The notes under the pieces are model-generated. The model searched no databases and was not told the DNA's origin. It saw only the letters and a list, made by a program, of their open reading frames with translations. From the NCBI RefSeq assembly GCF_056746865.1, contig NZ_CM163382.1: a stretch of 64,000 nucleotides of DNA; one strand, 5' to 3'. Below, in pieces: positions 25,565 through 49,174 of this stretch; the stretch's first letter is position 1; the number at the start of each line of letters is the position of its first letter. A program made the position numbers and the translations under genes.

Positions 25565-28813
<3,249 letters not shown>

Positions 28814-34032: not shown

Positions 34033-35151
34033 TCAAATAACCAACTTAACCCATTCCTGACCTCGAGTATCGTTATAGCGATCGGTGGTTGCCTGGACTT
34101 TATGTCCTAGTAATGTTTTTGTATCGATACCCTGTGCACGGTACAGCCGTTCTGATAGAGAGCGTTGTTCATGAAATGTTGGCGGAGTTTTTCCTGCTGG
34201 TGGAATTATCCCAGCCAGATCCCGTGCTTTGGCAAAGTAGTCGCTCAGGTTGTCTTTACTCATCGGCTTCGGTTGTTTCTGGTGCCGACTATGGATTAGA
34301 TATGGACTTAATATTCTGTCTCGGCACCCATCAATAACTTCTTTTAACGTTATCCCAATGGCATCACAGCGTAGTGTAAGCGGTAACGCCAGACGCATTC
34401 CGGTTTTTCCCTGGGTGATATGCAAGTGTTCGTTCCACACATCTGAAAAACGCATGTGGCAAATGTCATCACGGCGCTGACCAGTAACAATCGCAAGAAG
34501 CATTGCGTTACGGATAAAGTGTTTTTCAGGCGTTGCATTGTAAATTTTTTGCCAGTCTTCCATGGTGAGCCTGGCTCTGGTTACTTTAGGGATCGGTTTA
34601 CGGGTAGCCTCCGGAGGATTCCATCCAGGAGGAACTTCCCCTGCATGCTGTGCTTCTTTATAAATATCAACCCATAATCCACGATTTACTCTCGCTGTGC
34701 TGACCATGTCTTTATCCAGCCACTCATCCAGTATTAATGCAAAGTCTCTTACTTCCAGTTCTTTCAATGGGTGGTTTCCCAGACGGGAAACCAGGTATGC
34801 AGCCATTCGAGTTTTTTCTTTGTGAGTTGTAGCTGCAATATCTCCATTTTTCAGTCGCGTGTTCTGTATTTTCAGATATCGATCAACCCATGCCTTTAAT
34901 CTGATACCCCGACGTTTTGTTGCTGACGGACTTTCATCAATTTTGCGCATGAAATATTCAGCTTCTGCTGCAGCTATTCGCTGATTGGCTGTGGAAGCGA
35001 TTTTTTCTGCCTTACCTTTGTCTGTTCCGAGTCCGTGAAATTTTCCAGTCACAGGATTTTTATACTGGTAGTAAACTCTGCCAGTTCTGCGATCAAACTT
35101 TTCGTAAAGACCGGCTACGTCAGTGCTGTTTTTTCGTGGCCTCGGTGACAT
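34033..35151 (-). CDS. int: tyrosine-type site-specific integrase (lambda Int family)
   Basis: 372-aa ORF; C-terminal catalytic region ...HEQRSLSERLYRAQGIDTKTLLGHKVQATTDRY... resembles lambda Int R-H-R-Y signature. Confidence 0.9.
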   Translation of the reverse strand: MSPRPRKNSTDVAGLYEKFDRRTGRVYYQYKNPVTGKFHGLGTDKGKAEKIASTANQRIAAAEAEYFMRKIDESPSATKRRGIRLKAWVDRYLKIQNTRLKNGDIAATTHKEKTRMAAYLVSRLGNHPLKELEVRDFALILDEWLDKDMVSTARVNRGLWVDIYKEAQHAGEVPPGWNPPEATRKPIPKVTRARLTMEDWQKIYNATPEKHFIRNAMLLAIVTGQRRDDICHMRFSDVWNEHLHITQGKTGMRLALPLTLRCDAIGITLKEVIDGCRDRILSPYLIHSRHQKQPKPMSKDNLSDYFAKARDLAGIIPPAGKTPPTFHEQRSLSERLYRAQGIDTKTLLGHKVQATTDRYNDTRGQEWVKLVI

Positions 35152-35450: not shown

Positions 35451-37889
35451 TTAAAAATCAGCCTGACTCGGGATCAGTTTTTGCCAGATAACTGAAACGT
35501 ATTTTGCCTGGTAACGGGCGTCATCAAGTGCATTATGGCGCTCACCTTCGAATGGAATAGCCGTTCTGGCATCGAAGTCTATGGCTTTCCCCAGCTCAAC
35601 GATTGTGCGTACATCTCGATCGTTGTAGTAACGCCACGGGCAGGGGATCCCCTGCCGTTCGTATGAACGGCGCAAAATCGTGTTGTCGAAGTTGGCTCCA
35701 TTTCCCCAGACCTGAACAAAAAATTCACCGGAGTTTTCGTCGATAAATTCCCGCAATTGTAACAGTGCATCATCTAACGGGATTTCATCGGTCATAATGG
35801 CAGATTGCGCTTCGCGTGATTGCTTAAGCCACCATTTAATGGTGTCCCGATCAATGACCCCGCCAGCAGTTTCCAGATCGATAGTCTTACTAAATTCCGG
35901 TCCCATATCTCCGGTTTGCGGATCGAAAAATATTGCACCTATTGAGATGATCGGGGCATCAGGATTTTTTCCCATGGTTTCAAGGTCGATCATTAGATGG
36001 TCACACGTCCTGCTGGTGGATGTGATAACGTGATGACCGTTCACCGTAATTAAGGGATCTGCCGTCTCGCCAGTTTCACTATCGCTGGCGTGATCCTGAG
36101 CGCTGCCAGCATTCTCCTTGTGTGGATGTTCAGCGCCTTCCATTTCCTTCGGATCATTTTCCTGAACTTCAACCTGATTCTCTTCATCGAATGTTTCCTG
36201 GTATGTTGCGTCGCCCATCACCGCGCCACAATCAGGGCAGTTGCCGCCGCCGGTCTGACCGCAGGCGGTGCAGATCTTTTCCGGTTCCTGTTGCACTACT
36301 GGTTCAGGTTGTTTCGTTTCTGGCTCGTTTTGTAACGCATTTGGGCTGTTTTGTTCCGCTTTCTGGTCGTTCTGTTCCGATTCTTGCTGGTTCTGGTTTA
36401 CAGAATCGCGGGTTTCAATCCCCTTTACCCATTTCGGATCATTCGGGTCGCTAATCCCTGCAACAAATTCTCCGCGAGAGGCAGCAAGCAACTTATCGGC
36501 GTCAGGCTGGCTGATATTGGCTGCCTGCATAATTTTGTTTACTTCGTCAGCGGTAACTTTTACCTGTGACTTGTCATCCAGCGGCTGCGGGTCCTGATGA
36601 TGTTCAACTGTATCCGCTGCCATTGTTTCAGCCGTTGCCTGTTCATCTGCCATTGCGCCAGATGGTTGCGGGTTATCTTCATCATTTTTTTCTTCTTCTG
36701 TTTTGCACTCAGCAGCCAGTCCGCCGTTAATTTCTTCCAGGATATCTTTTTCCGGTGTATGCCGGGCAGCCATGAGCGTTTCAGCTGTGGGATTCTCGTG
36801 ATCAGTTTCTGTCAGGTTGGCATTGATATACCCCTGAAGGCGCCCCGGGTAGTGATAAAACTCAGGGTGGGCGCTTCGGATAAGTGCAAAAATAGCTGCG
36901 CGGGAATAGTCCAGGATACCAGGGGTTGCGCGAAGTGCTGCGGACCATTCCCTGAACGGACTTTCTTTTTTCAGGACGATTTCTTTTGCGCGACGATAAA
37001 CGCTGCCCGGAATTTCATAAATATTAAAATCCATCGGAAGTGTGGCTGCTGCAATCTCCACATCCAGCGCATCGAAGGTGTGTACTAAATTCGGATTGCG
37101 ATCGGTTTTGTTCCCGCCACCGGCATTTGCACCGGAAGCCGTACGGGTGATACGCGAAACACGATTTCCTTTCATCCACTCTTTTGTCAGCAGACCCCGA
37201 TCAGTGTAATCAGCGTCCAGGTATGCCTCGAAAAAAGCAGTTATCAGTCCCAGGTCTGAATTACCGGGATTAGGGAAAACTTTGTCAGTGTCGCGTACCA
37301 GTTTGTGAAGGTCGCGAATCTCCAGCGGGTCGAGCAGCTTTGTTTTGTGAGAAATGGCCAGGGCAGTAACAGCCGGCAGTTCTTCCGCCCGTGCTATATG
37401 TAATGCCTGAAGTTCTTCCCGTGCAACGTGCGTTACTGGTTTTTCGCTGCTGTGTTGCGCAAGCCAGCGAATGGGCAGCTCCTGACCAGAAACCGGCAGG
37501 AGCATATTCTCCTCAATCTCCGTCATGTCTTCGCCGTTGACGTTGGTATTGTCAGTACTGGCTGGTTTCTCCTGCACGGAGGGAGAGGGCGCGATAAATA
37601 CCATTGTAATGCCATCTTCCCCGCCTTTTTCGTATCGGTTGCAGAATTCGGTATCAAACACGCCTTCAGGTGGAAGGTCATTCACAACGGGTAAATGGAC
37701 GCGAACGGGTTTTTTAAAGTCGTCTTCATCATAATCGTTGTCATCCATTGCGGTAATGCAGCGGGAGATGGCAACAGATAATTTTTTTGCTGTAGTCCAG
37801 TAAAAACCACCTTTAATTCCCAGACGTTTTCTGACTTTGTCATTTTTTGCTTCGCAATATAGCGCAAATTCTTCTTTATCAGTGCTCAT
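35451..37889 (-). CDS. large phage protein with C-terminal DnaQ-like (DEDDh) 3'-5' exonuclease domain
   Basis: 812 aa; C-terminal Exo I (MIDLETMG), Exo II (WGNGANFD) and Exo III (HNALDDARY) motifs; central acidic linker with Cys4 cluster [16 protein letters not shown]. Confidence 0.8.
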
Positions 37890-40098: not shown

Positions 40099-40773
40099 TC
40101 AGTCTAAGTATTGATGTATTTGTGAAACTTTACCTTTAATGGTGTAACCACCATTCAGTTCGATGGGTTTGTAAAGCGGATTCAGTGACAACAAATAGAT
40201 GTTTGGTCCGTCAATCGCAACTTTTTTTAGTGTTACGTTTGGCGTTCCTTCCAATTGGATTAAGATTATTTTTCCCACCAGTTCTCTAATGTTACTTGAG
40301 CATGGTGTGATCAGCACGGTAGATCCGTCGGGGATGGTTGGGAGGCCGTTAGAGTTTGTCATCGCATCTCCCTCAACATGCAATAAAAAAGAGTTTTCAG
40401 CGGTTTTTGTCATGACATCAACCCAGTTATTAATACCAGGAATCTTGGTTACTGGACAACTCATATCCCAATAACCAGCCTGTTCCCACGTTAAAACGGG
40501 CAACCGGGCGATGTTGTCACTAATGTAAGGGTACTGATTCAGACGCAGATCATCGGTTTTATCGTGACAGTCCTTTCCATAAAGAATCCATTCAGGAGAT
40601 TTGGAAAGCAATTTTGACAGTAGATACAAATTCTCACCGTCAGGTTTTGAAGAGCCATTTTCCCATTTTGTTACGGATACACGAGATATGCCGATTGCTT
40701 TCGCAACCTGCTGTTGGGTTAATCCAACGTCTTTTCGACGATTCCGAATACGTTCGCTGATAGTGTTTTTCAT
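40099..40773 (-). CDS. cI: CI-type prophage repressor (N-terminal HTH plus C-terminal S24 LexA-like peptidase)
   Basis: HTH LTQQQVAKAIGISRVSVTKWENG; S24 domain with catalytic GDAM serine context and a downstream Lys; start trimmed to MKNTISER... leaving a 91-bp operator region before cro. Confidence 0.85.
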   Translation of the reverse strand: MKNTISERIRNRRKDVGLTQQQVAKAIGISRVSVTKWENGSSKPDGENLYLLSKLLSKSPEWILYGKDCHDKTDDLRLNQYPYISDNIARLPVLTWEQAGYWDMSCPVTKIPGINNWVDVMTKTAENSFLLHVEGDAMTNSNGLPTIPDGSTVLITPCSSNIRELVGKIILIQLEGTPNVTLKKVAIDGPNIYLLSLNPLYKPIELNGGYTIKGKVSQIHQYLD

Positions 40774-40835
40774 GTAACCAATGTTACTACCAAGTGATGT
40801 TGCTATGGTTGACATTGTTATGTAACTATTGTTAC
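40774..40835. promoter_or_regulatory. right operator region (OR) with two dyad sites between cI and cro
   Basis: GTAACCAATGTTAC (40774-40787) and GTAACTATTGTTAC (40822-40835); consensus -35 TTGACA at 40809-40814. Confidence 0.55.
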
Positions 40836-40864
40836 CCTTCTGCTCGAAATAACAGGAGAGTTTT

Positions 40865-41080
40865 ATGTTCAAAGATGATGTTCTGCGCTATTTCAAAAAA
40901 AAGCGACTAGTAGCTGAGGCTCTTGGAATTTCACATGTGGCTGTTGTGCGGTGGAAAGCAGTTATTCCCAAACTTCGCGCAATGGAACTGGATGAAATTA
41001 CTAACGGTGAATTGAAATACAACCCAGAACTTTACAAGAAGCAGGATAGCACCTCGAACGAAGGAAAGAATGATTCATGA
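40865..41080 (+). CDS. cro: Cro-like HTH regulator
   Basis: 71-aa ORF divergent from cI across the operator region; HTH AEALGISHVAVVRW. Confidence 0.7.
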   Translation: MFKDDVLRYFKKKRLVAEALGISHVAVVRWKAVIPKLRAMELDEITNGELKYNPELYKKQDSTSNEGKNDS

Positions 41081-41502
41081 AAATCAAGCATGAACACATC
41101 CGCATGGCGATGAATGTCTGGGCGCATCCGGACGGCGAAAAAGTACCGGCTGCGAAAATTACCAAAGCGTATTTCGAGCTGGGAATGACGTTCCCGGAAC
41201 TGTATGACGACAGCCATCCGGAAGCCCTGGCCCGTAATACCCAGAAAATTTTCCGTTGGCTGGATAAAGACACCCCTGATGCTGTTGAAAAAATGCAGGC
41301 TCTGTTACCGGCGATCGAAAAGGCGATGCCGCCTTTGCTGGTGGCCCGTATGCGCAGCCACAGTTCTGAATATTACCGTGAGATCGTCGAACGGAGGGAT
41401 CGGCTGGTGAAGGATGTCGATGATTTTGTTGCGTCAGCGGTTGTTTTGTATGACCAGATGAATCGCGGCGGCCCGGCAGGGAATGCTGTGGTGATGCACT
41501 AA
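41077..41502 (+). CDS. CII/YdaT-like early regulatory protein
   Basis: 141-aa ORF directly after cro (ATGA overlap), in the position of Rac ydaT / lambda cII; sequence similarity not verified. Confidence 0.45.
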   Translation: MKIKHEHIRMAMNVWAHPDGEKVPAAKITKAYFELGMTFPELYDDSHPEALARNTQKIFRWLDKDTPDAVEKMQALLPAIEKAMPPLLVARMRSHSSEYYREIVERRDRLVKDVDDFVASAVVLYDQMNRGGPAGNAVVMH

Positions 41503-41524
41503 AAGCACGGTGTTCGGGGGTTTT

Positions 41525-42487
41525 ATGAGCAGCAAGCTTCATGGTCTTGTCTGGGAAGGGTGCGCCTTCACCGGCATGATCTTATCCAGGGTGGCGGTTA
41601 TGGCCCGTCTTGCAGACTACAGCAATGACGAGGGCGTGTCATGGCCTGCCATTGAAACTATCCGGCGTCAGATCGGTGCAAGAAGTGAATCCACAGTGAA
41701 ATCGGCTATTGCAGAACTGGCGAAAGAGGGCTGGCTGACGAAGGAAGAGCGTAAGGTCGGTGGGCGTAATGTAAGCAATATCTATCGGCTTAATGTGGAA
41801 AAACTCGAAGCAGCTGCGGCGGCGGCGCGTGAGTCATATAAACCGAAAAGAAAAATTAGCCCGGCAAAAAATGACCCGTTAACAGTTGACCCGTCAAATA
41901 TTGACCCCTCAACGGTTGACCCGTCAAATTTTGATGGATCAACTGTTGATAAAAAACTGCCGATTAGGGGGGCGATGATTGACCCCGATCCGTCAGTATT
42001 AAAACCTGATCCGTCAGATAAAAGATCTTCTTGTCCGGACGCTTCGCAACCGGACCCGCAGACGGCTGAACAGGATTTTTTAACCCGACACCCTGACGCG
42101 GTTGTGTTCAGTGCGAAAAAACGCCAGTGGGGAAGTCAGGAAGATTTGGTGTGCGCACAGTGGATCTGGGGACGAATCGTGAGTCTTTACGAGCAGGCGG
42201 CCAGCGATGATGGCGAGATCACTAGACCGAAAGAACCCAACTGGACAGCATGGGCCAATGACGTTCGCACAATGCGGATGCTGGATGGCAGAACTCACAG
42301 ACAAATTTGTGAAATGTTTGGGCGTCTCCAGCGGGATTCGTTCTGGGTAAAAAACATCATGAGTCCGGCAAAACTCCGGGAAAAATGGGATGAACTGGTT
42401 ATCCGCCTGGGGCGTTCGCCTGCGCAGCGTTGCGTGAATCACATTTCTGAACCGGACACTGAAATACCGCCGGGATTCAGGGGGTGA
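41525..42487 (+). CDS. replication initiation protein (O-like / YdaU-like)
   Basis: N-terminal winged-helix region; internal tandem DP(S/L)xV repeats encoded by iterons; followed by a DnaC-like loader; ATG at 41525 preferred over GTG at 41510. Confidence 0.7.
   Translation: MSSKLHGLVWEGCAFTGMILSRVAVMARLADYSNDEGVSWPAIETIRRQIGARSESTVKSAIAELAKEGWLTKEERKVGGRNVSNIYRLNVEKLEAAAAAARESYKPKRKISPAKNDPLTVDPSNIDPSTVDPSNFDGSTVDKKLPIRGAMIDPDPSVLKPDPSDKRSSCPDASQPDPQTAEQDFLTRHPDAVVFSAKKRQWGSQEDLVCAQWIWGRIVSLYEQAASDDGEITRPKEPNWTAWANDVRTMRMLDGRTHRQICEMFGRLQRDSFWVKNIMSPAKLREKWDELVIRLGRSPAQRCVNHISEPDTEIPPGFRG
41870..41944. repeat. origin-type iterons: five tandem 15-bp repeats, each an internal TTGAC..GTCAA dyad
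   Basis: atgacccgttaacag / ttgacccgtcaaata / ttgacccctcaacgg / ttgacccgtcaaatt / ttgatggatcaactg at 15-bp phase inside the initiator gene. Confidence 0.65.
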
Positions 42488-42493
42488 CGTGTC

Positions 42494-43240
42494 ATGAAAA
42501 ACATTGCGGCAGTTGGGGTTCTTGAACGTATTCGCAGACTTGCACCACAGGGGTCGGTTCCACCGTACCGGACGGTGGAGGAGTGGCGGGAATGGCAACT
42601 TGCTGAAGGACGAAAACGCAGCGAGGAGATTAACCGCCAGAATCGCCAGTTGCGGGTGGAAAAAATCCTGAATCGTTCGGGCATCCAGCCTCTGCACAGC
42701 AAATGCTCGTTTGCAAATTATCAGGTGCAGAACGACGGGCAAAAATACGCGCTGAGCCAGGCCAAATCCATAGCTGACGAACTGATGACCGGGTGCACGA
42801 ATTTTGTGTTCAGCGGTAAAACCGGCACCGGGAAAAATCACCTTGCAGCGGCGATGGGCAACCGGCTGATGGTGAAGGGGCGCAGCGTGATTATCGTCAC
42901 CGTGTCTGACGTCATGAGCGTGTTGCATGACAGCTACGACAACGGCAAATCCGGGGAAAAATTTTTACAGGAGCTTTGCGGGGTTGATTTGCTGGTCCTG
43001 GATGAAATAGGCGTTCAGCGGGAGACGAAAAACGAGCAGGTGGTATTGCACCAGATAATTGATCGCCGGACAGCATCACTGTGCAGTGTCGGGATGTTAA
43101 CAAACCTGAATCATGCCGCAATGAGTACGCTTCTTGGTGAGAGGATTATGGACCGCATGACCATGAACGGTGGTCGATGGGTGACGTTTAACTGGGATAG
43201 CTGGCGTCCAAATGTCAGCAATATGAGGGTTGTGAAGTAA
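42494..43240 (+). CDS. DnaC-like helicase loader (IstB-type AAA+ ATPase)
   Basis: Walker A GKTGTGKNHLAAA and Walker B LLVLDEIG. Confidence 0.85.
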   Translation: MKNIAAVGVLERIRRLAPQGSVPPYRTVEEWREWQLAEGRKRSEEINRQNRQLRVEKILNRSGIQPLHSKCSFANYQVQNDGQKYALSQAKSIADELMTGCTNFVFSGKTGTGKNHLAAAMGNRLMVKGRSVIIVTVSDVMSVLHDSYDNGKSGEKFLQELCGVDLLVLDEIGVQRETKNEQVVLHQIIDRRTASLCSVGMLTNLNHAAMSTLLGERIMDRMTMNGGRWVTFNWDSWRPNVSNMRVVK

Positions 43241-43261
43241 TTTTGTCCGGAGGAAATTTTA

Positions 43262-44032
43262 ATGGAAACCGTATCTGACGCACTGAAAGCACTGAAAAAA
43301 GCCTCTTCACATGTGGTGGCAGCTCGCCTTGGAATCAGTCGTGAAGAGGCTGTCAACGAGCTGTGGGAACTCAAAAGAAATGGCGTCGTTGATAAAACTG
43401 GTCACACCTGGTTTCTGGCTGGCGAAGGTGAATCCCGGGTAACCGAAGAGCGGCCAGTAAAATCTGAAGCACAGGATATGCTGACCGGGGAGGTCGAACA
43501 AAAAGTTACCGCAGACATGATGATTGAGTTTATCGGTCAGGATGGGGCTAAAACGTGTGAGGAACTGGCGGGTAAGTTCGGTGTCAGTACTCGCAAGGTT
43601 GCTTCCACGCTGGCGGTGGTAACCGCAACGGGGCGGCTGGCACGCGTTAATCAGAACGGTAAATTTCGTTACTGCATGCCGGGCGATAATTTACCAGCAG
43701 AGCCGAAAGCCGCGCTGGTAACGGAAAGTGATGGTAAGGCCTTTCCTCAGCCAGCAGGTGCTGCGTTACCAGGCCGGGAAGCCGCAACACAGGAAGAAAT
43801 TAAAACAGAAACTGTGGCGGACATTGTGCAGTCGTTGCCATCGTTTACCGAAACGCAAGCAGATGAGCTGATTTTTCCGTCCCTGCGCAGGGCAAACCTG
43901 GCGCTGCGCAGGGCGAAAAGTGATGTTCAGAAGTGGGAGCGAGTCTGCGCCGCGCTGCGGGAGCTGAACAAGCACCGGGATATTGTTCGACAGATTACTG
44001 ATTCTTCCCGCCGTGTTGTATCGGAAAAGTGA
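43262..44032 (+). CDS. hypothetical phage protein
   Basis: 256-aa ORF with AGGAGG-like RBS; N-terminal region may be winged-helix. Confidence 0.55.
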   Translation: METVSDALKALKKASSHVVAARLGISREEAVNELWELKRNGVVDKTGHTWFLAGEGESRVTEERPVKSEAQDMLTGEVEQKVTADMMIEFIGQDGAKTCEELAGKFGVSTRKVASTLAVVTATGRLARVNQNGKFRYCMPGDNLPAEPKAALVTESDGKAFPQPAGAALPGREAATQEEIKTETVADIVQSLPSFTETQADELIFPSLRRANLALRRAKSDVQKWERVCAALRELNKHRDIVRQITDSSRRVVSEK

Positions 44033-44047
44033 TTGCCGGAGGCGCTT

Positions 44048-44470
44048 ATGGCAAAAGTATTTACACAAGAAGAGCGGGAAAAAATTAAAGGGCAGGTTGT
44101 TGAACTTGTACGTCTGAGCGGTCGCGAGACGTTGCGGCAACTGGAAGCCAAGACAGGTGCGACAAGATATCTGATGAGTGTTCTCGCCAGAGAGCTGGTT
44201 GCCAGTGGCGATGTATACAACTCTGGTTACGGGTTATTCCCGTCTGAACAGGCGCGTAAGGACTGGCAAAACGCCCGCAAAAAACTCTCAAGGGCAAATC
44301 TGAAGAAACCATCTGTGGTTGATCCTGACCTTATCTGGCCATTACCAGACGGCGAAATACGCCGCTACGACAGGCGTCAAAACATAATCTGTAGCGAGTG
44401 CCGGAAGAGCGAAGCTATGCAGCGTGTACTGGCTTTCTATCAGGGTAATTTTCAGAAGGTGCTGTTGTGA
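44048..44470 (+). CDS. hypothetical phage protein
   Basis: ATG 7 nt after GGAGG; track ORF 44033-44470 begins at an upstream TTG. Confidence 0.5.
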   Translation: MAKVFTQEEREKIKGQVVELVRLSGRETLRQLEAKTGATRYLMSVLARELVASGDVYNSGYGLFPSEQARKDWQNARKKLSRANLKKPSVVDPDLIWPLPDGEIRRYDRRQNIICSECRKSEAMQRVLAFYQGNFQKVLL

Positions 44471-44575
44471 GCCAAATTAACAATCGGAACTTCGTGAAGA
44501 GAAAGCATAATCCAAATCTGAATAATTAAGTTCAGCACTGTAAATAAAATTTAATCCTTAACTGGAGGTATATCT

Positions 44576-44689
44576 ATGTCAAATACACAGAAAATTATTA
44601 ACACTGAAAAATATAACGAGTGGGTGAAAAATTCTCTGAGCAGATTTTTAAAATTACTGGCGACGAGAATGTGGCAAAAAATGAATTAG
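44576..44689 (+). CDS. hypothetical 37-aa ORF
   Basis: ATG 8 nt after GGAGG at the end of repeat motif copy A; an overlapping alternative frame exists. Confidence 0.25.
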   Translation: MSNTQKIINTEKYNEWVKNSLSRFLKLLATRMWQKMN

Positions 44690-44819
44690 AACCGTGGACA
44701 CCTGAAGGAAACGCACCAAATTATTGCTGGTGGGAGGTTGATCCGGTTGATGCTGCAAATGAAGCCATGAGTTACCACAACGATTAATGTCGGGAGGCCG
44801 CCCGAAAGGGCGGTAAGAA

Positions 44820-45038
44820 ATGACTACATTATTCAGAAAAGAATATCCGCAAAAAAGTAGGGCGACAGAATTTTTGTTTCTCATTCTGTTTATCGTATTG
44901 ATGATACCGATATCCCCTCTAATTTTTGTCTGGGCAATCGGGAAAATAATTGAGCCAGTTTCTGAATTGTATAACGACGTGGTGTGGGCGTCATTCAACA
45001 CACTGCACAATAAAATTAATCCGTATAAGGAAAACTGA
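44820..45038 (+). CDS. small hydrophobic protein
   Basis: 72-aa ORF preceded by SD-hairpin element copy 1; one predicted TM segment. Confidence 0.5.
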   Translation: MTTLFRKEYPQKSRATEFLFLILFIVLMIPISPLIFVWAIGKIIEPVSELYNDVVWASFNTLHNKINPYKEN

Positions 45039-45039
45039 T

Positions 45040-45243
45040 ATGGCAACTTTGACAAAAAAAGAACGGGCATGGTTGAACGAATTACAGGAAGTTCTTGATC
45101 GCTGTCCATCACCGAAAAAATTGGCTTTTACACCATTGGCGATAAAAGCATTTACCTGTATGACCTACGCCGCATGGATGAAATCATGGAGGCTCTTGAT
45201 AATCGTTCGTCGATGGATTGGTGTGTTGCTGTTCATGATATGA
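45040..45243 (+). CDS. hypothetical protein, possibly frameshifted
   Basis: MATLTKKERAWLNELQEVLDRCPSPKK...; a protein-like continuation exists in another frame to 45302. Confidence 0.3.
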   Translation: MATLTKKERAWLNELQEVLDRCPSPKKLAFTPLAIKAFTCMTYAAWMKSWRLLIIVRRWIGVLLFMI

Positions 45244-45433
45244 ATGCAGGGTTTGATGAAAAGATTTTGTTCCCCTCATCAGTTGAAAGCACTGCGGGTT
45301 AAGGAGTAACACATGACCACTATTACCAAAGAACGTATTGAATTGTTCATTAAATTTTCAGGAGGCGGTACTGTGAGTGAAATTAGCTATCAGGCTTCAA
45401 TTACCGCTGGCATTCGCATCAAAGGAGAGGAGC

Positions 45434-45790
45434 ATGGAAATAAAACCAGAGGATGAGTTAAGCAATATCGTTTTATTTCCGGTAAAAGAGGATGACCCTC
45501 GTAATCAGGTTAATTTTCTTTATGAGCCATCGGAAAGACCATATTGTCATCACGCCTCTGTCCGGGTTGACGAAAAAGAGCGTCAGGTCCGCTGTAAAAT
45601 CTGCGGTGCAGTTGTGGAACCATTTGACTGGATGCTCTCTGTGGCGAAAAGAGAAACCAGACTGGCAGATGATGTAAGGCTCTTGCGTCAGGAGGAGCGG
45701 GAAAGGCGAAAAAATATAGAAAAGCTAATTCAGATTGAGCGTAACGCGAAAGCGCGGATACGCAGGGCGACAAAATCCAGAACTGAATAA
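45434..45790 (+). CDS. hypothetical Cys/His-containing protein
   Basis: ATG after AAGGAGAGGAG; product has CHH...C..C cluster (putative zinc site). Confidence 0.5.
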   Translation: MEIKPEDELSNIVLFPVKEDDPRNQVNFLYEPSERPYCHHASVRVDEKERQVRCKICGAVVEPFDWMLSVAKRETRLADDVRLLRQEERERRKNIEKLIQIERNAKARIRRATKSRTE

Positions 45791-45883
45791 TTAAATTTAG
45801 CTCTGTTAAAAATTTAATCCTTAACCGGAGGGATTTCTGCACCCTCAGAACATCAGGAGGCCGCCCGAAAGGGCGGTAGTTAA

Positions 45884-46066
45884 ATGCGAAAGTTTAAAAT
45901 AATTATTGAAACGGGAATAGCCGGTGGAGATTTCGAGGATGAATTCGAAGTGGATGATGATGCGACGCCTGATGAAATACATGACGAAGCAAAAGATATT
46001 TTCTTTAACTACTGCAATTACTCATATCACGAAATAAAAGACGAAGAGGAAGAACAAAATGGCTGA
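45884..46066 (+). CDS. small acidic protein
   Basis: 60-aa ORF preceded by SD-hairpin element copy 2. Confidence 0.5.
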   Translation: MRKFKIIIETGIAGGDFEDEFEVDDDATPDEIHDEAKDIFFNYCNYSYHEIKDEEEEQNG

Positions 46067-46235
46067 TTTTGGTTCAACTAAATACAACGTCGGTTTTGAA
46101 GAATGGCATGAACTGTTAATGGACTATGCAGAGTTACGTGGTGGCAGTGCTGCTGATGCTGAAGCATGGCGTGATGATTATGAAGCAGGAAAAACTCCGG
46201 TCGAAGCATATTGTGATGAGTGGGGCGATGAATGA
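46059..46235 (+). CDS. hypothetical 58-aa protein
   Basis: Manual translation MADFGSTKYNVGFEEWHELLMDYAELRGGSAADAEAWRDDYEAGKTPVEAYCDEWGDE; start overlaps the preceding stop. Confidence 0.3.
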   Translation: MADFGSTKYNVGFEEWHELLMDYAELRGGSAADAEAWRDDYEAGKTPVEAYCDEWGDE

Positions 46236-46717
46236 GCGAGGTTAATTATCAGGAAGGGCATGAAACGGCGGGGCAAGCAAAAACAGTGGCATGGCGATAT
46301 CGCTACGTGAAAAAAAGGCGTTACGGACTTTCAGGGGAAGTAGTGGTCTGGTGACTGGAAATATGTACCGAAAAAAGAGGATTGTAACGACAGGCCGAAC
46401 TATGAAATTCAGGCCTTATTCACTGCCCCGCCAGTCCCGGTTACATCAGAAGAACTGGTTAAAGCTGTGCACTTTTATGAACAACTAAAATGCGAAAATC
46501 CACCAGCATCCGGAAACCTGATTACAGATTCCCAGATAAGGCAATGAGCTACCTGGCGCAGAACGGGCTGATAAGTATGGGGAATGTTTTACGATGAATA
46601 TTTAGACTAAAGAGTTTGTAACGCTATGTAAGTGATTTTTTCTGGTTTAGATATTTATATGTCCGGCTAAATTGAGGTGTGTTTAAATGTTATTGCACAT
46701 TGATTGTAGGGGGAATA

Positions 46718-46897
46718 ATGAAAAACGCATTGCAGTTTTTGTTTGTTGCGTTCTGGTTGTTCGCATCATGTATGCCCATCATCTTCACAGCAAGGTATAT
46801 GGAAAAAGTTGATGTTTTGATATTAATGTTTGGACATATAAATGCCCTTTTTTTAGGGGTGTTCATGGCGGTCATGTGCATTGAATACTGGCGGTAA
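46718..46897 (+). CDS. small membrane protein (AT-rich gene)
   Basis: ATG after AGGGGGAATA; product MKNALQFLFVAFWLFASCMPIIF... with two hydrophobic segments. Confidence 0.4.
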   Translation: MKNALQFLFVAFWLFASCMPIIFTARYMEKVDVLILMFGHINALFLGVFMAVMCIEYWR

Positions 46898-47155
46898 ATA
46901 CAGCGAACGCCATTGGTTTAGTTGGATATTTACTGTGCCGGACAAAAACGGTTTGCGGGGAAATCTTAGTTAAGTAGAATGACTGCGGGTGCTTGAGGCT
47001 ATCTGTCTCAGGCATGAACACCAAAAGGCAGATAGAGAAAAGCCCCAGTTAACATTACGCGTCCTGCAAGACGCTTAACATTAATCTGAGGCCATATCTA
47101 TGCGACACATAGAGATTAGCCTCTTACGGACCGAAAGGTCAAGGAGAAGCAGGCT

Positions 47156-47311
47156 ATGAAGCAGCAAAAGGCGATGTTAATCGCCCTGATCGTCATCTGT
47201 TTAACCGTCATAGTGACGGCACTGGTAACGAGGAAAGACCTCTGCGAGGTACGAATCCGAACCGGCCAGACGGAGGTCGCTGTCTTCACAGCTTACGAAC
47301 CTGAGGAGTAA
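47156..47311 (+). CDS. hok: Hok/Gef-family type I toxin (51 aa)
   Basis: MKQQKAMLIALIVICLTVIVTALVTRKDLCEVRIRTGQTEVAVFTAYEPEE matches the recalled HokD/RelF sequence; short overlapping upstream ORF 47100-47159 (mok-like); 3' stem-loop 47319-47340. Confidence 0.8.
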   Translation: MKQQKAMLIALIVICLTVIVTALVTRKDLCEVRIRTGQTEVAVFTAYEPEE

Positions 47312-47478
47312 GAGACCAGGCGAGGGGGAAATCCCTCGCCACCTCTGATGAGTCAGGCATCCTCAACGCACCCGCACTTAACCCGCTTCGGCGGGTTTTG
47401 TTTTTTCCTGGCATTCTGGTTTACAATTCGCACGTCAGCCTGAACACCTGACACCTGCTGCGCCAGTAGAGAAAACAG

Positions 47479-47751
47479 ATGGCGCACAAAACCAAATTTC
47501 ACAATTCTGATACCGACCTTGCCATCCGGCATGGGCGGCGTTCACACGCATTTAAAACCGACTGGTACCAACACCCACCATGTACTGAAGAACAGGCCGA
47601 ATGGCTAATTCATAACTACCGCAGACGCGGATACGAGATTAAGAAAGCCCTCAGCCTCGATTATCGTCACTGGATAATCTATGTCAGGCTCCCTTATTCC
47701 GAACGCTCACCGCGCCCATCCCGCACATTCCAGCAACGCATCTGGAGGTAA
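47479..47751 (+). CDS. hypothetical protein (Rem-position)
   Basis: 90-aa ORF between hok and the DUF968 gene, the position of rem in the Qin hokD-rem-ydfU arrangement. Confidence 0.45.
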   Translation: MAHKTKFHNSDTDLAIRHGRRSHAFKTDWYQHPPCTEEQAEWLIHNYRRRGYEIKKALSLDYRHWIIYVRLPYSERSPRPSRTFQQRIWR

Positions 47752-47752
47752 C

Positions 47753-48802
47753 GTGCGGATATTACTTCGACCTGTTCTGGTACCGGAACTCGGGCTGGTG
47801 GTCCTTAGGCCGGGCCGTGAATCCATGCCGGTATTCCACAATACCCGGGTACTGGTGGAGCCTGAACCGAAAAGCATGCACGGTCTGCCGTCCGGAGTCG
47901 TCCCTGCCGTTCGCCAGCCGCTGGCGGAGGATAAATCATTTCTGCCATTTTTCAGCGATGAGCGGGTGATTCGTGCTGCTGGCGGCGCTGGGGCACTGTC
48001 TGACTGGCTGTTGCGTCATGTCAAATCCTGCCAGTGGCCTCATGGTGACTATCATCACAGTGAAATCGTCATACATCGTTACGGTACCGGCGCGATGGTG
48101 TTGTGCTGGCACTGCGACAACCAGTTGCGCGACCAGACCTCCGAATCACTCGGGCAACTTGCTCATCAAAACCTGTCAGCATGGATGATTGACGTCATAC
48201 GCCATGCAATGAATGGCACGCAGGAGCGGGAATTGTCGCTGGCTGAATTATCCTGGTGGGCGGTCCGCAATCAGGTGGCGGACGCGCTACCGGAAGTGGT
48301 ATTACGTCGTTCGCTGGGGTTGCGTGCGGAAAAAATCCGCTCAATGTACCGTGAAAGCGACATCGTACCGGGAGAGCAGACCGCCACCAGCATACTGAAA
48401 CAGCGCACAAAAAATATTGCGCCGCTGCCTCACGCCCACCAGCAACAGAACCCACCACAGGAAAAGACGGTGGTCAGCATTGCCGTTGATCCTGAGTCTC
48501 CGGAATCTTTCATGAAACGACCTAAACGTCGCCGCTGGGTTAACGAGAAATACAAACGCTGGGTGAAGACACAGCCGTGTGCGTGTTGTGGTAAGCCAGC
48601 CGACGATCCCCATCACCTGATTGGTCATGGTCAGGGCGGAATGGGGACAAAATCTCACGATATTTTCACGCTACCGCTGTGTCGGGAGCATCACAACGAG
48701 CTTCATGCGGATCCTCTGGCGTTCGAACAAAAGCATGGTTCTCAGGTTGATTTAATTTTTCGTTTTCTTGATCACGCCTTTGCAACTGGCGTGCTTGGGT
48801 AA
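47753..48802 (+). CDS. DUF968-family (YdfU-like) protein with C-terminal Cys/His motif
   Basis: GTG start 3 nt after GGAGGTA; C-terminal ...CACCGKPADDPHHLIGHGQGGMGTKSHDIFTLPLCREHHNELH; track ORF 47681-48802 is an upstream extension. Confidence 0.7.
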   Translation: MRILLRPVLVPELGLVVLRPGRESMPVFHNTRVLVEPEPKSMHGLPSGVVPAVRQPLAEDKSFLPFFSDERVIRAAGGAGALSDWLLRHVKSCQWPHGDYHHSEIVIHRYGTGAMVLCWHCDNQLRDQTSESLGQLAHQNLSAWMIDVIRHAMNGTQERELSLAELSWWAVRNQVADALPEVVLRRSLGLRAEKIRSMYRESDIVPGEQTATSILKQRTKNIAPLPHAHQQQNPPQEKTVVSIAVDPESPESFMKRPKRRRWVNEKYKRWVKTQPCACCGKPADDPHHLIGHGQGGMGTKSHDIFTLPLCREHHNELHADPLAFEQKHGSQVDLIFRFLDHAFATGVLG

Positions 48803-48814
48803 AAGAGGTGACTG

Positions 48815-49174
48815 ATGCTCATAGATTTGGTTTTACCTTACCCGCCGACGGTGAACACTTACTGGCGACGCCGTGGCAGCACATATTTTATTTCGGAGGA
48901 GGGAAAGCGTTATCGCCGGGCTGTGGCGCTTATTGTTCGCCAGCAGCGGCTGAAATTAAGCCTGTCCGGAAGGCTGGCGATAAAGGTGATTGCAGAGCCA
49001 CCGGATAAGCGTCGTCGCGACCTGGACAATATCCTGAAAGCACCGCTGGATGCGCTGACGCATGCGGGAGTGTTAATGGACGATGAGCAGTTTGATGAAA
49101 TCAATATTGTACGTGGTCAGCCAGTATCTGGTGGACGGCTGGGTGTGAAGATTTACAAAATTGAGAGTGAGTGA
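48815..49174 (+). CDS. rusA: RusA Holliday-junction resolvase
   Basis: 119-aa ORF with RusA signature ...DKRRRDLDNILKAPLDALTHAGVLMDDEQ... Confidence 0.85.
   Translation: MLIDLVLPYPPTVNTYWRRRGSTYFISEEGKRYRRAVALIVRQQRLKLSLSGRLAIKVIAEPPDKRRRDLDNILKAPLDALTHAGVLMDDEQFDEINIVRGQPVSGGRLGVKIYKIESE

What the first reader, a model, noticed from the sequence alone, without database searches (positions are those of the whole stretch)
41870..41944. Five phased 15-bp iterons inside the O-like initiator gene
Five tandem 15-bp units, each containing a TTGAC...GTCAA dyad, lie within the replication-initiator coding sequence and encode the repeated peptide DP(L/S)xV. This mirrors lambda's ori iterons inside gene O and marks the likely replication origin; downstream repeats GATCCGTCAG x2 (41984-42015) follow.
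Basis: partly seen in the sequence, partly recalled or inferred. Interest (0 to 1): 0.35.

Follow-up and report, generated by a model that had tools for sequence, protein, structure and literature searches.

The report
Replication-origin repeats inside prophage initiator gene
A run of five 15-base repeats inside the replication-initiator gene of an E. coli lambda-like prophage is very probably the set of initiator-binding sites of the phage's replication origin; this is the lambda layout in a different initiator family, so it is useful for annotation but not surprising.

Summary
Five 15-bp units (12-bp dyads starting at 41871, 41886, 41901, 41916 and 41931; consensus TTGAC-CC-GTCAA) form the strongest tandem repeat in the 64-kb window. 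They lie in a 320-aa O-like initiator gene (41525-42487), which is followed by a DnaC-like loader gene.

Comparative evidence supports reading them as origin iterons.
- Relatives with 51-100% identity in the N-terminal domain, including SfIV, phiP27 and Klebsiella phages, carry an array at the same place. The 15-bp period and the core T-GA-N4-TCA-A are kept, copy number runs from 3 to 7, and the encoded peptides differ.
- Two wobble positions are nearly invariant, while the amino acids around them change.
- Synonymous identity is 80% in the linker and 41% in the DNA-binding domain.
- The array encodes a predicted disordered linker between a winged-helix domain and a C-domain homologous to that of phi80 gp15.
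- Genes with other N-domains (mEp460, phi80) carry different repeats at the same place.

Two invariant GATCCGTCAG boxes, a modestly AT-rich stretch and a right arm shared with phi80 complete the origin, which spans about 41871-42055.

The N-domain is not in Pfam's lambda O family. No experiment exists. I class it as a new member of a known kind, of modest interest.

The parts
41525..42487 (+). O-like replication initiator gene (320 aa). Winged-helix N-domain aa 1-105, disordered linker aa 108-179, helical C-domain aa 181-297.
   Evidence: ORF; RefSeq annotates the same 963-nt CDS. HTH_36 E=2e-6 and phrog_391 'replication initiation O-like'. AlphaFold2 domain layout. C-domain 36% identical to phi80 gp15, E=5e-26.
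41871..41942 (.). Iteron array: five 12-bp dyads at a 15-bp period, starting at 41871, 41886, 41901, 41916 and 41931. Family-wide core is T-GA-N4-TCA-A; here it is TTGAC-CC-GTCAA. Encodes aa 116-140.
   Evidence: Conserved in relatives. Position weight matrix.
41946..41950 (.). Trailing half-site TTGAT in phase with the array.
   Evidence: and the phased listing.
41979..41996 (.). TTGACCCC half-site fused to box A, GATCCGTCAG (41987-41996). In 9 of the 14 genes listed, the first box lies 54 bp after the last regex-detected array unit.
   Evidence: Codons GAT-CCG-TCA are identical in 11/11 lineages.
42008..42017 (.). Box B, GATCCGTCAG, 21 bp after box A. The spacing is 12-24 bp in relatives.
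41987..42036 (.). Modestly AT-rich stretch that holds both boxes and an A-tract. It is 60% AT here and 50-66% in relatives (58-66% in ten of eleven). It is the candidate unwinding region. Three of the four clustered GATC sites lie inside it (41987, 42008, 42024); the fourth (41937) is in the fifth iteron.
   Evidence: The unwinding role is inferred.
42018..42055 (.). Conserved right arm ATAAAAGATCTTCTTGTCCGGACGCTTCGCAACCGGAC. It is shared by initiator genes with three different N-domain types, including phi80 gene 15.
   Evidence: DNA alignment. The same codon is used in 9-10 of 10 lineages for S169, C170, P171 and D177.
42494..43240 (+). DnaC/IstB-like helicase-loader gene, the presumed partner of the initiator.
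   Evidence: PF01695 E=7e-19; phrog_50 'DnaC-like helicase loader' E=8e-82.
40099..41502 (.). Upstream immunity and early genes: cI-like repressor (40099-40815, - strand), Cro (40865-41080, +), YdaT/cII-like (41077-41502, +). Rightward early transcription would run through the array.
   Evidence: Transcriptional activation of the origin is inferred from lambda.

Best explanation
The array is the initiator-binding (iteron) part of the prophage's replication origin, embedded in the initiator gene as in lambda and phi80.

Proposed mechanism:
- Dimers of the initiator's N-terminal winged-helix domain (aa 1-105) bind the five dyad sites TTGAC-N2-GTCAA and build a multi-protein complex on about 75 bp.
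- The adjacent conserved DNA is where the duplex opens. It comprises two GATCCGTCAG boxes, an A-rich stretch with clustered Dam sites, and the right arm up to about 42055.
- The C-terminal domain, homologous to that of phi80 gp15, together with the DnaC-like loader encoded immediately downstream, brings in the host DnaB helicase.
- The DNA signals can sit inside the gene because that part encodes a disordered linker that tolerates almost any peptide.

Shown here: the repeat and its statistics; its conservation as DNA rather than as protein; its linkage to the N-domain type; and the domain layout.

Inferred: binding by the N-domain, the place of unwinding, helicase recruitment, and activation by rightward transcription.
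For: 1. The repeat is real and the strongest in the window.

2. The genomic context is a lambdoid replication module with a DnaC-like loader.

3. Eleven diverged lineages (N-domain identity 65-100%) plus phiP27 (51%) and YeP1 keep a 15-bp-period array at the same place. The core is nnT-GA-y-nnn-TCA-A, copy number is 3-7, and the peptides differ: DPSNI, SDASK, FEGSK, SEPSK.

4. The position weight matrix shows DNA-level selection.
- Wobble position 3 is T in 37/38 distinct units, although that codon encodes 8 different amino acids.
- Wobble position 12 is A in 38/38.
- The other wobble positions carry only 0.3-0.4 bits.
- Serine in the core of the array units is TCA 43 times and TCG twice (a further 16 TCT serines fill the variable flanking codon), whereas TCA is 27 of 214 serine codons elsewhere in the same genes.
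- TGA/TCA dyad symmetry holds in 30/38 units.

5. Pairwise synonymous-codon identity is 0.80 in the linker columns, 0.41 in the N-domain and 0.45 after the linker. D-P-S in both boxes is GAT-CCG-TCA in 11/11 lineages, with CCA replacing CCG in 3 cases in box B.

6. AlphaFold2 gives pLDDT below 50 for aa 108-179, which corresponds to nt 41846-42061. That matches the constrained DNA zone. This segment lies between a winged-helix domain and a helical C-domain.

7. The repeats follow the N-domain type in modular swaps.
- The same N-domain and array are joined to a phi80-gp15-type C-domain (this window, SfIV) or to a Phg_2220_C C-domain (LLS, phiNP). Phg_2220_C is the lambda O type according to PMC5509034.
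- The same C-domain joined to a different N-domain (mEp460) carries 5 repeats of 23/24 bp of unrelated sequence at the same place.
- phi80 gene 15 carries four annotated gp15-binding sites at 21-bp spacing at the same place.

8. All of these genes share the right arm ATAAAA..CTTCTyGTCCGGA.

9. In lambda and Stx phages the origin (iterons plus an AT-rich tract) lies in the middle of O, and iteron number varies between 4 and 6, adding residues to O (PMC7466680).
Against: - There are no experimental data for this family. Nothing was found in six literature searches.
- The AT-rich element is weak, about 60% AT over 50 bp, compared with lambda's marked AT tract.
- A 15-bp period, about 1.4 helical turns, is short for iterons. 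phi80 has 21 bp and mEp460 has 23-24 bp. The half-sites tile at alternating 7 and 8 bp, so which pairs form one binding site is ambiguous.
- Natural variants carry substitutions that break the core (GAC to GCC, AAC or GGC), arrays of only 3 units, or a single GATC box. Individual units are therefore dispensable, or some carrier prophages are decaying.
- Concerted evolution among repeat units could inflate the apparent codon conservation.
- More distant N-domain relatives have no in-gene array: a Vibrio phage at 37% identity and a P22-like Salmonella phage at 40%.
- The N-domain does not match Pfam Phage_rep_O.
Confidence: 0.8

Rival explanations
1. The repeat is only a protein feature: a low-complexity Asp/Pro/Ser linker that expands and contracts by replication slippage, with no function as DNA.
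For: The units are in frame at 15 bp, or 5 aa. The segment is predicted disordered. Copy number varies from 3 to 7 in whole units. The D-x-S residues are conserved.
Against: - Wobble positions are the most conserved positions, while the amino acids at the same codons vary among 8 residues.
- TCA is used for serine almost exclusively in the core (43 TCA, 2 TCG), against 13% elsewhere in the same genes.
- Protein-level selection has no reason to produce the TGA/TCA dyad symmetry.
- The equivalent array in mEp460-type genes has a 23/24-bp period that does not keep the reading frame.
Confidence: 0.06
2. The sites are bound by the initiator or another factor, but for control rather than initiation. 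Examples are autoregulation, initiator titration, incompatibility, or exclusion of related phages. The true start site would lie elsewhere.
For: Iterons in plasmids and cloned lambda ori copies also act as titration or inhibition elements (PMC3349717 and PMC4488673, titles and abstracts listed). More distant relatives of the N-domain have no in-gene array.
Against: The array is flanked by origin-like features that are conserved as DNA: the GATC boxes, an A-rich tract, and a right arm shared with the phi80 origin region. No other copy of the dyad exists in the 64-kb window. No comparable repeat cluster lies near the replication genes.
Confidence: 0.08
3. The high DNA conservation of the linker reflects its role as a recombination junction between exchangeable N- and C-domain modules, or recent gene conversion. 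It would not reflect a binding function.
For: The N/C module boundary lies in or next to this segment. The right arm is shared by genes with three N-domain types.
Against: Conservation is specific to the motifs, not contiguous. The sequence between the boxes and between the cores varies freely. The array differs between N-domain classes, so it belongs to the N module rather than to a shared junction. This rival could explain 42018-42110 but not 41871-42017.
Confidence: 0.05

Closest known systems
Bacteriophage lambda ori inside gene O (four iterons plus an AT-rich tract; O and P proteins)
   Same: - An array of dyad-symmetric direct repeats lies in the middle of the initiator gene, followed by a more AT-rich stretch (PMC7466680).
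- The initiator has an N-terminal DNA-binding domain and a C-terminal domain.
- A helicase-loader gene follows.
- The module sits downstream of cro and cII.
- Relatives of this N-domain and array are joined to the Phg_2220_C C-domain, which lambda O also has (PMC5509034).
   Different: - The N-domain is HTH_36/DnaD_N-like, with no match to Pfam Phage_rep_O.
- Units repeat every 15 bp with a 10-12-bp core, whereas lambda has roughly 19-bp iterons at about two helical turns (my own knowledge).
- The AT-rich tract is weak.
- The loader is DnaC/IstB-like, not P.
Phage phi80 gene 15 origin (four gp15-binding sites inside gene 15)
   Same: - The C-domain is homologous (36% identity, E=5e-26).
- The binding sites lie just after the N-domain and just before the shared right arm TAAAAGATCTTC.GTCCG.
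- The repeats are in frame and encode a repeated linker peptide.
   Different: - The phi80 N-domain is Phage_rep_O.
- Its sites are about 16 bp long at 21-bp spacing, with unrelated sequence (CCGAAAACGGGAA type).
- Its partner gp14 is unrelated to the DnaC-like loader here.
Stx-phage origins (933W, P27) with six iterons
   Same: Iteron copy number differs between close relatives, and the initiator's length changes with it (PMC7466680). Here the number is 3-7 units and the protein length changes in steps of 5 aa.
   Different: Those are true lambda-type O proteins and iterons.
O-like genes of SfIV, SfII, phiNP, LLS, Klebsiella phage 1 LV-2017 and phiP27 (annotated replication protein O, primosomal protein or hypothetical)
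   Same: They have the same N-domain family (51-67% identity), the same 15-bp array with core TGAynnnTCAA, the same pair of GATC boxes, and the same layout.
   Different: - The unit flanks differ (TCTGAC..TCAAAA), and so does the peptide (SDxSK).
- Most lack an adjacent DnaC-like gene and instead have a Dam methylase gene nearby.
- None of these records annotates the repeats.
Plasmid iteron origins (pSC101, R6K, P1 oriR class)
   Same: A winged-helix initiator would bind multiple direct repeats next to an AT-rich region. A GATC cluster near the presumed opening site recalls P1 oriR and oriC (my own knowledge).
   Different: - The iterons lie inside the initiator gene rather than upstream of it.
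- The period is 15 bp rather than about 22 bp.
- There is no Rep_3 domain.
- The one DnaA-box-like sequence, at 41794, is not conserved.

Membership tests
Lambdoid intragenic origin (ori-lambda type) | Three or more direct repeats with internal dyad symmetry located inside the initiator gene | tested here: met
   Five units at a 15-bp period inside ORF 41525-42487. TGA/TCA symmetry holds in 30/38 distinct family units.
Lambdoid intragenic origin (ori-lambda type) | Repeats lie between the N-terminal DNA-binding domain and the C-terminal domain of the initiator | tested here: met
   AlphaFold2: winged-helix domain aa 1-105, disordered aa 108-179, helical domain aa 181-297. The array encodes aa 116-140. 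phi80's binding sites sit at the same place in gene 15.
Lambdoid intragenic origin (ori-lambda type) | AT-rich unwinding tract next to the repeats | tested here: inconclusive
   There is only about 60% AT over 50 bp from box A, and 50-66% in relatives (58-66% in ten of eleven), against a gene average near 47% AT. This is much weaker than the lambda tract.
Lambdoid intragenic origin (ori-lambda type) | Repeat sequence co-varies with the initiator's N-terminal domain while C-domains are exchangeable | tested here: met
   There are three N-domain classes with three repeat types (15, 23/24 and 21 bp) on homologous C-domains. The same N-domain and array also occur on two C-domain types.
Lambdoid intragenic origin (ori-lambda type) | A helicase-loader gene immediately follows the initiator gene, in the early rightward operon | tested here: met
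   A DnaC/IstB-like gene lies at 42494-43240, with cI, cro and a cII-like gene upstream. Several relatives lack the loader.
Lambdoid intragenic origin (ori-lambda type) | The initiator binds the repeats, and the segment supports replication in cis | not testable with these tools
   Needs EMSA or footprinting and a mini-replicon assay. A 16-kb circular record made of this prophage segment is only a hint.
Lambda O protein family (Pfam PF04492 Phage_rep_O) | N-terminal domain matches Phage_rep_O | tested here: not met
   No match at E<=1. The best matches are HTH_36 (3e-7) and DnaD_N (6.5e-4, below its cut-off). phi80 gp15 does match, at E=6e-25.
PHROG 391 'replication initiation O-like' | Profile match over both domains | tested here: met
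   N-domain E=1.8e-34 and C-domain E=2.3e-70.
Plasmid Rep/iteron origins (Rep_3 class) | Rep_3-type initiator, about 22-bp iterons upstream of rep, and a DnaA box | tested here: not met
   There is no Rep_3 match. The repeats have a 15-bp period and lie inside the gene. The only nearby DnaA-box-like site is not conserved.

The most novel reading that the evidence does not exclude
The origin may work by a different geometry and control from lambda's.

Its half-sites tile continuously: TTGAC and GTCAA alternate every 7 and 8 bp, which gives the 15-bp period of about 1.4 helical turns. Winged-helix dimers could therefore form a continuous helical filament along the DNA, rather than wrapping DNA around a protein core.

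Two strictly conserved GATC-containing boxes sit at the presumed opening site, and many relatives carry a Dam methylase gene right after the initiator gene. Together these could make firing depend on adenine methylation or SeqA.

The number of units, which varies from 3 to 7 in nature, could act as an evolvable dial for origin strength.
Probability: 0.12. Interest if true: 0.6.

Novelty: new member of a known kind. Interest (0 to 1): 0.3.

Why it matters
This module is present at 99% identity or more in over 1,300 of 5,426 complete E. coli genomes. Related forms occur across Enterobacterales, including serotype-converting Shigella phages and phage phiP27. Yet RefSeq labels the gene only 'helix-turn-helix domain-containing protein', and no record annotates an origin.

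Defining the origin at 41871-42055 has several uses:
- It gives a concrete annotation rule for the family: a 15-bp TGAynnnTCAA array followed by two GATCCGTCAG boxes.
- It predicts replication specificity and incompatibility groups among co-resident prophages.
- It provides a compact candidate replicon for mini-plasmid construction.
- It is a clean example of protein-coding DNA whose wobble positions are fixed by a second, DNA-level code.

Tried and rejected
- **DnaA box.** One TTTTCCACA lies at 41794-41802 on the minus strand. The window has 5 such matches against 6.25 expected, and this site is absent from all ten relatives, so I treat it as chance.
- **Promoters and terminators, 40700-42600.** The scan found no promoter-like site and nothing relevant. 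In particular there is no oop-like element, since the gap before the gene is only 22 bp.
- **Solved structures.** The sequence-profile search found nothing. Foldseek on the model returned only generic winged-helix regulators at E of about 0.007. This supports the fold class but gives no specific homologue.
- **Literature.** Six full-text searches found no description of iterons for this family. The review by Weigel and Seitz (2006), which might cover it, is not held.
- **Rac prophage YdaU.** I considered it as a possible equivalent. Its N-domain is a different family, DUF1376, so I did not use it.
- **Distant N-domain relatives.** A Vibrio phage and the P22-like Salmonella phage SI8 show no in-gene array. 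The rule therefore holds only for the enterobacterial subfamily with at least about 50% N-domain identity.
- **Plasmid collection.** The hits are mostly mis-assigned chromosomal pieces. One 16-kb circular record is suggestive but unverifiable.
- **'Primosomal protein I' (DnaT) label.** Some phage records use this label, but no Pfam match to the C-domain supports it.

Full report
**The observation.** Reading 41400-42500 shows five phased 15-bp units. Their 12-bp dyads are:
- ATGACCCGTTAA, 41871-41882
- TTGACCCGTCAA, 41886-41897
- TTGACCCCTCAA, 41901-41912
- TTGACCCGTCAA, 41916-41927
- TTGATGGATCAA, 41931-41942

A half-site TTGAT follows at 41946-41950. Tandem Repeats Finder (TRF) reports period 15 with 5.0 copies and a 30-bp super-period with score 101. 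That is the top-scoring tandem repeat in the whole 64-kb window. An autocorrelation scan gives 41-43 of 60 matches at lag 15 and 48 of 60 at lag 30, against a background of 16.0 ± 3.7. All windows that reach these values lie at this locus, and no other locus is better at any lag from 4 to 40. The exact dyad TTGACNNGTCAA occurs nowhere else in the window. The downstream pair GATCCGTCAG lies at 41987-41996 and 42008-42017. Four GATC sites fall within 41937-42027, where 0.35 would be expected. The only adjustments are that the outer two units are degenerate and that the peptide alternates: DPLTV, DPSNI, DPSTV, DPSNF, DGSTV.

**Context.** The window holds a lambdoid prophage of E. coli:
- integrase at 34033-35151
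- an exonuclease-like gene
- cI-like repressor at 40099-40815 (minus strand)
- Cro at 40865-41080
- a YdaT/cII-like gene at 41077-41502
- the gene in question at 41525-42487
- a DnaC/IstB-like gene at 42494-43240
- DUF1627 and DUF968 genes, and an IS transposase ORF
- large terminase and portal near the right end

The 1.2-kb stretch around the finding is at least 99% identical in 1,342 records of complete E. coli genomes. The protein's N-terminus matches HTH_36 (E=2e-6) and, below cut-off, DnaD_N. It does not match Pfam Phage_rep_O. Both halves match PHROG 391, 'replication initiation O-like'. Phage records annotate homologues as 'DNA replication protein O', 'primosomal protein' or 'hypothetical'.

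**Domain layout.** An AlphaFold2 model built on 49 homologues gives three parts:
- a winged-helix domain, aa 1-105, pLDDT 71-87
- a segment with pLDDT below 50, aa 108-179
- a helical domain, aa 181-297

Foldseek matches the N-domain only to generic winged-helix regulators. The low-confidence segment corresponds to nt 41846-42061. The array (aa 116-140), both GATC boxes (aa 155-164) and the stretch up to D177 are therefore all encoded in a predicted disordered linker.

**Relatives carry the same thing as DNA, not as protein.** I compared SfIV, Klebsiella phage 1 LV-2017, vB_EcoS-733R5, LLS, phiNP, Kp4866-6 and 80 IMG/VR loci. The region right after the N-domain always holds a 15-bp-period array. 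The peptide differs between lineages (DPSNI/DPSTV, SDPSK/SDASK, SKFEG/SEFEG), while the DNA core nnT-GA-y-nnn-TCA-A persists. phiP27 (N-domain 51% identical) and Yersinia phage YeP1 show the same, with TGAACCGTCAAAATC × 3.3 in phiP27 followed by a 24-bp-period repeat that contains GATCCGCAAG. Copy number ranges from 3 to 7 and changes in whole units, even among near-identical genes. Stx phages show the same behaviour relative to lambda, with 6 iterons against 4 and a correspondingly longer O protein (PMC7466680).

**Tests for DNA-level constraint.** I took 38 distinct units from 11 lineages. Interior units were taken unfiltered.
- The third-codon position before GA is T in 37/38 units, although that codon encodes N, T, I, E, V, Y, S or F.
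- The third position of the Ser/Leu/Pro codon is A in 38/38.
- The other three wobble positions carry only 0.3-0.4 bits.
- Serine in the core is TCA 43 times and TCG twice (16 further TCT serines fill the variable flanking codon), whereas TCA makes up 27 of 214 serine codons elsewhere in the same genes.
- TGA/TCA dyad symmetry holds in 30/38 units.

In a codon alignment of the 11 lineages, conserved residues of the N-domain use mixed codons. In contrast, S119, S124 and S129 are TCA in 9-10 of 9-10 lineages. D155-P156-S157 is GAT-CCG-TCA in 11/11. D162 and S164 are GAT and TCA in 11/11. S169, C170, P171 and D177 use one codon in 9-10 of 10. Pairwise identity of synonymous codons is 0.41 in the N-domain, 0.80 in the linker and 0.45 after it. 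The conservation is specific to the motifs, because the sequence between the boxes varies freely. A second, DNA-level function therefore spans roughly 41871-42055.

**Linkage to the N-domain.** The array travels with the HTH_36 N-domain whichever C-domain follows. In the window, SfIV and the Klebsiella phages the C-domain is homologous to that of phi80 gp15 (36% identity, E=5e-26). In LLS, phiNP and Kp4866-6 it is Phg_2220_C, which is the C-domain of lambda O according to PMC5509034. The converse also holds. mEp460-type genes have the window's C-domain but an unrelated N-domain, and at the same place they hold five repeats of CATCGGGTCAAAATGAC-like sequence at 23/24-bp spacing, which does not keep the reading frame. 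phi80 gene 15 (Phage_rep_O N-domain) holds four annotated gp15-binding sites at 21-bp spacing at the same relative position. All four gene types share the right-hand sequence ATAAAA..CTTCTyGTCCGGA. This is the classical lambdoid pattern: the specificity module consists of the N-domain plus its own iterons, and the C-domain is exchangeable.

**Mechanism proposed.**
- Initiator dimers bind the five dyads through the winged-helix domain.
- The complex destabilises the neighbouring stretch of about 60% AT, which contains the two GATCCGTCAG boxes and an A-tract.
- The C-domain and the DnaC-like loader deliver host DnaB.
- Rightward early transcription passes through the site.

Only the sequence anatomy, the constraint and the co-variation are shown here. 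Binding, unwinding and helicase loading are inferred from lambda and phi80.

Two features differ from lambda. First, the 15-bp period means the half-sites tile at alternating 7 and 8 bp, so neighbouring dimers would sit on nearly opposite faces of the helix, and it is unclear which half-sites pair. Second, GATC is strictly retained in both boxes, and many relatives have a Dam methylase gene directly after the initiator gene. This suggests, but does not show, control by methylation.

**Caveats.**
- I found no experiment on this family, and a likely relevant review is not held.
- The AT-rich element is weak.
- Some natural variants break a core (GAC to GCC, AAC or GGC), have only three units, or have lost the 21 bp between the boxes.
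- Concerted evolution among units could add to the codon uniformity.
- N-domain relatives at or below 40% identity lack an in-gene array.
- A DnaA-box-like site at 41794 is not conserved.
- A 16-kb circular 'plasmid' record consists solely of this prophage's segment from cI to the lysis genes and has no typed plasmid replicon. It fits autonomous replication from this module but may be an assembly artefact.

**Verdict.** This is a lambda-style origin embedded in the initiator gene, in an initiator family whose DNA-binding domain is not the lambda O domain. It is widespread but unannotated. I class it as a new member of a known kind, with modest interest (0.3). My confidence that the array is the initiator-binding part of the origin is about 0.8.

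Noticed in passing
L092 (NZ_CP148542.1, whole 15,977-bp record); corresponds to window ~40100-56000: A circular 'plasmid' record from a dog E. coli consists only of this prophage's segment from the cI-like gene through cro, the initiator, the DnaC-like gene and on to the lysis genes. It has no typed plasmid replicon. It could be a lambda-dv-like autonomous circle or an assembly artefact.
   Followed up: partly
L003 2451-3260, L004 2921-3574, L005 2352-3239, L006 2370-3251, L008 2481-3290, L094 2977-3282: Many relatives have a DNA adenine (Dam-type) methylase gene next to or shortly after the O-like gene and no DnaC-like gene. The two origin boxes keep GATC in all 11 lineages compared. This suggests methylation control of the origin.
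   Followed up: partly
L002 1699-1828 and L004 1782-1897: mEp460-type O-like genes have a different N-domain but the same C-domain as the window. At the equivalent place they carry 4-5 repeats of CATCGGGTCAAAATGAC-like sequence at 23/24-bp spacing, out of frame, followed by TACAGAGAATAMAA 2-3 times. This is presumably their own iteron set, and it is not annotated.
   Followed up: partly
window 42018-42055; L091 6765-6790; L001 1945-1985; L002 1860-1900: A right-arm motif, ATAAAA..CTTCTyGTCCGGA (with AAAAGATCTTC in both the window and phi80), is shared by initiator genes with three different N-domain types, including phi80 gene 15.
   Followed up: partly
window 36318-36392: A 21-bp tandem repeat of 3.5 copies (TRF score 73) lies inside an 812-aa exonuclease-like ORF (35451-37889, minus strand), in a Gln/Glu-rich part of the protein.
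   Followed up: no
window 50619-51524: An ORF with transposase (rve) integrase-core domains lies inside the prophage's late-regulatory region. It is probably an IS insertion that could affect prophage viability.
   Followed up: no
L058 (IMG/VR 2671180417_000012), linker region: This variant lacks the 21 bp between the two GATCCGTCAG boxes (peptide IDPDPSDKRSS), leaving a single box. The likely cause is a deletion between the direct repeats.
   Followed up: no
window 41794-41802 (minus strand): A DnaA-box-like TTTTCCACA lies 70 bp upstream of the array. It is absent from all ten compared relatives, and the motif is not enriched in the window.
   Followed up: yes
window 54822-54873 and 27786-27830: Two further short tandem repeats were found: period 20 with 2.7 copies, and period 21 with 2.1 copies. 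I did not examine them.
   Followed up: no
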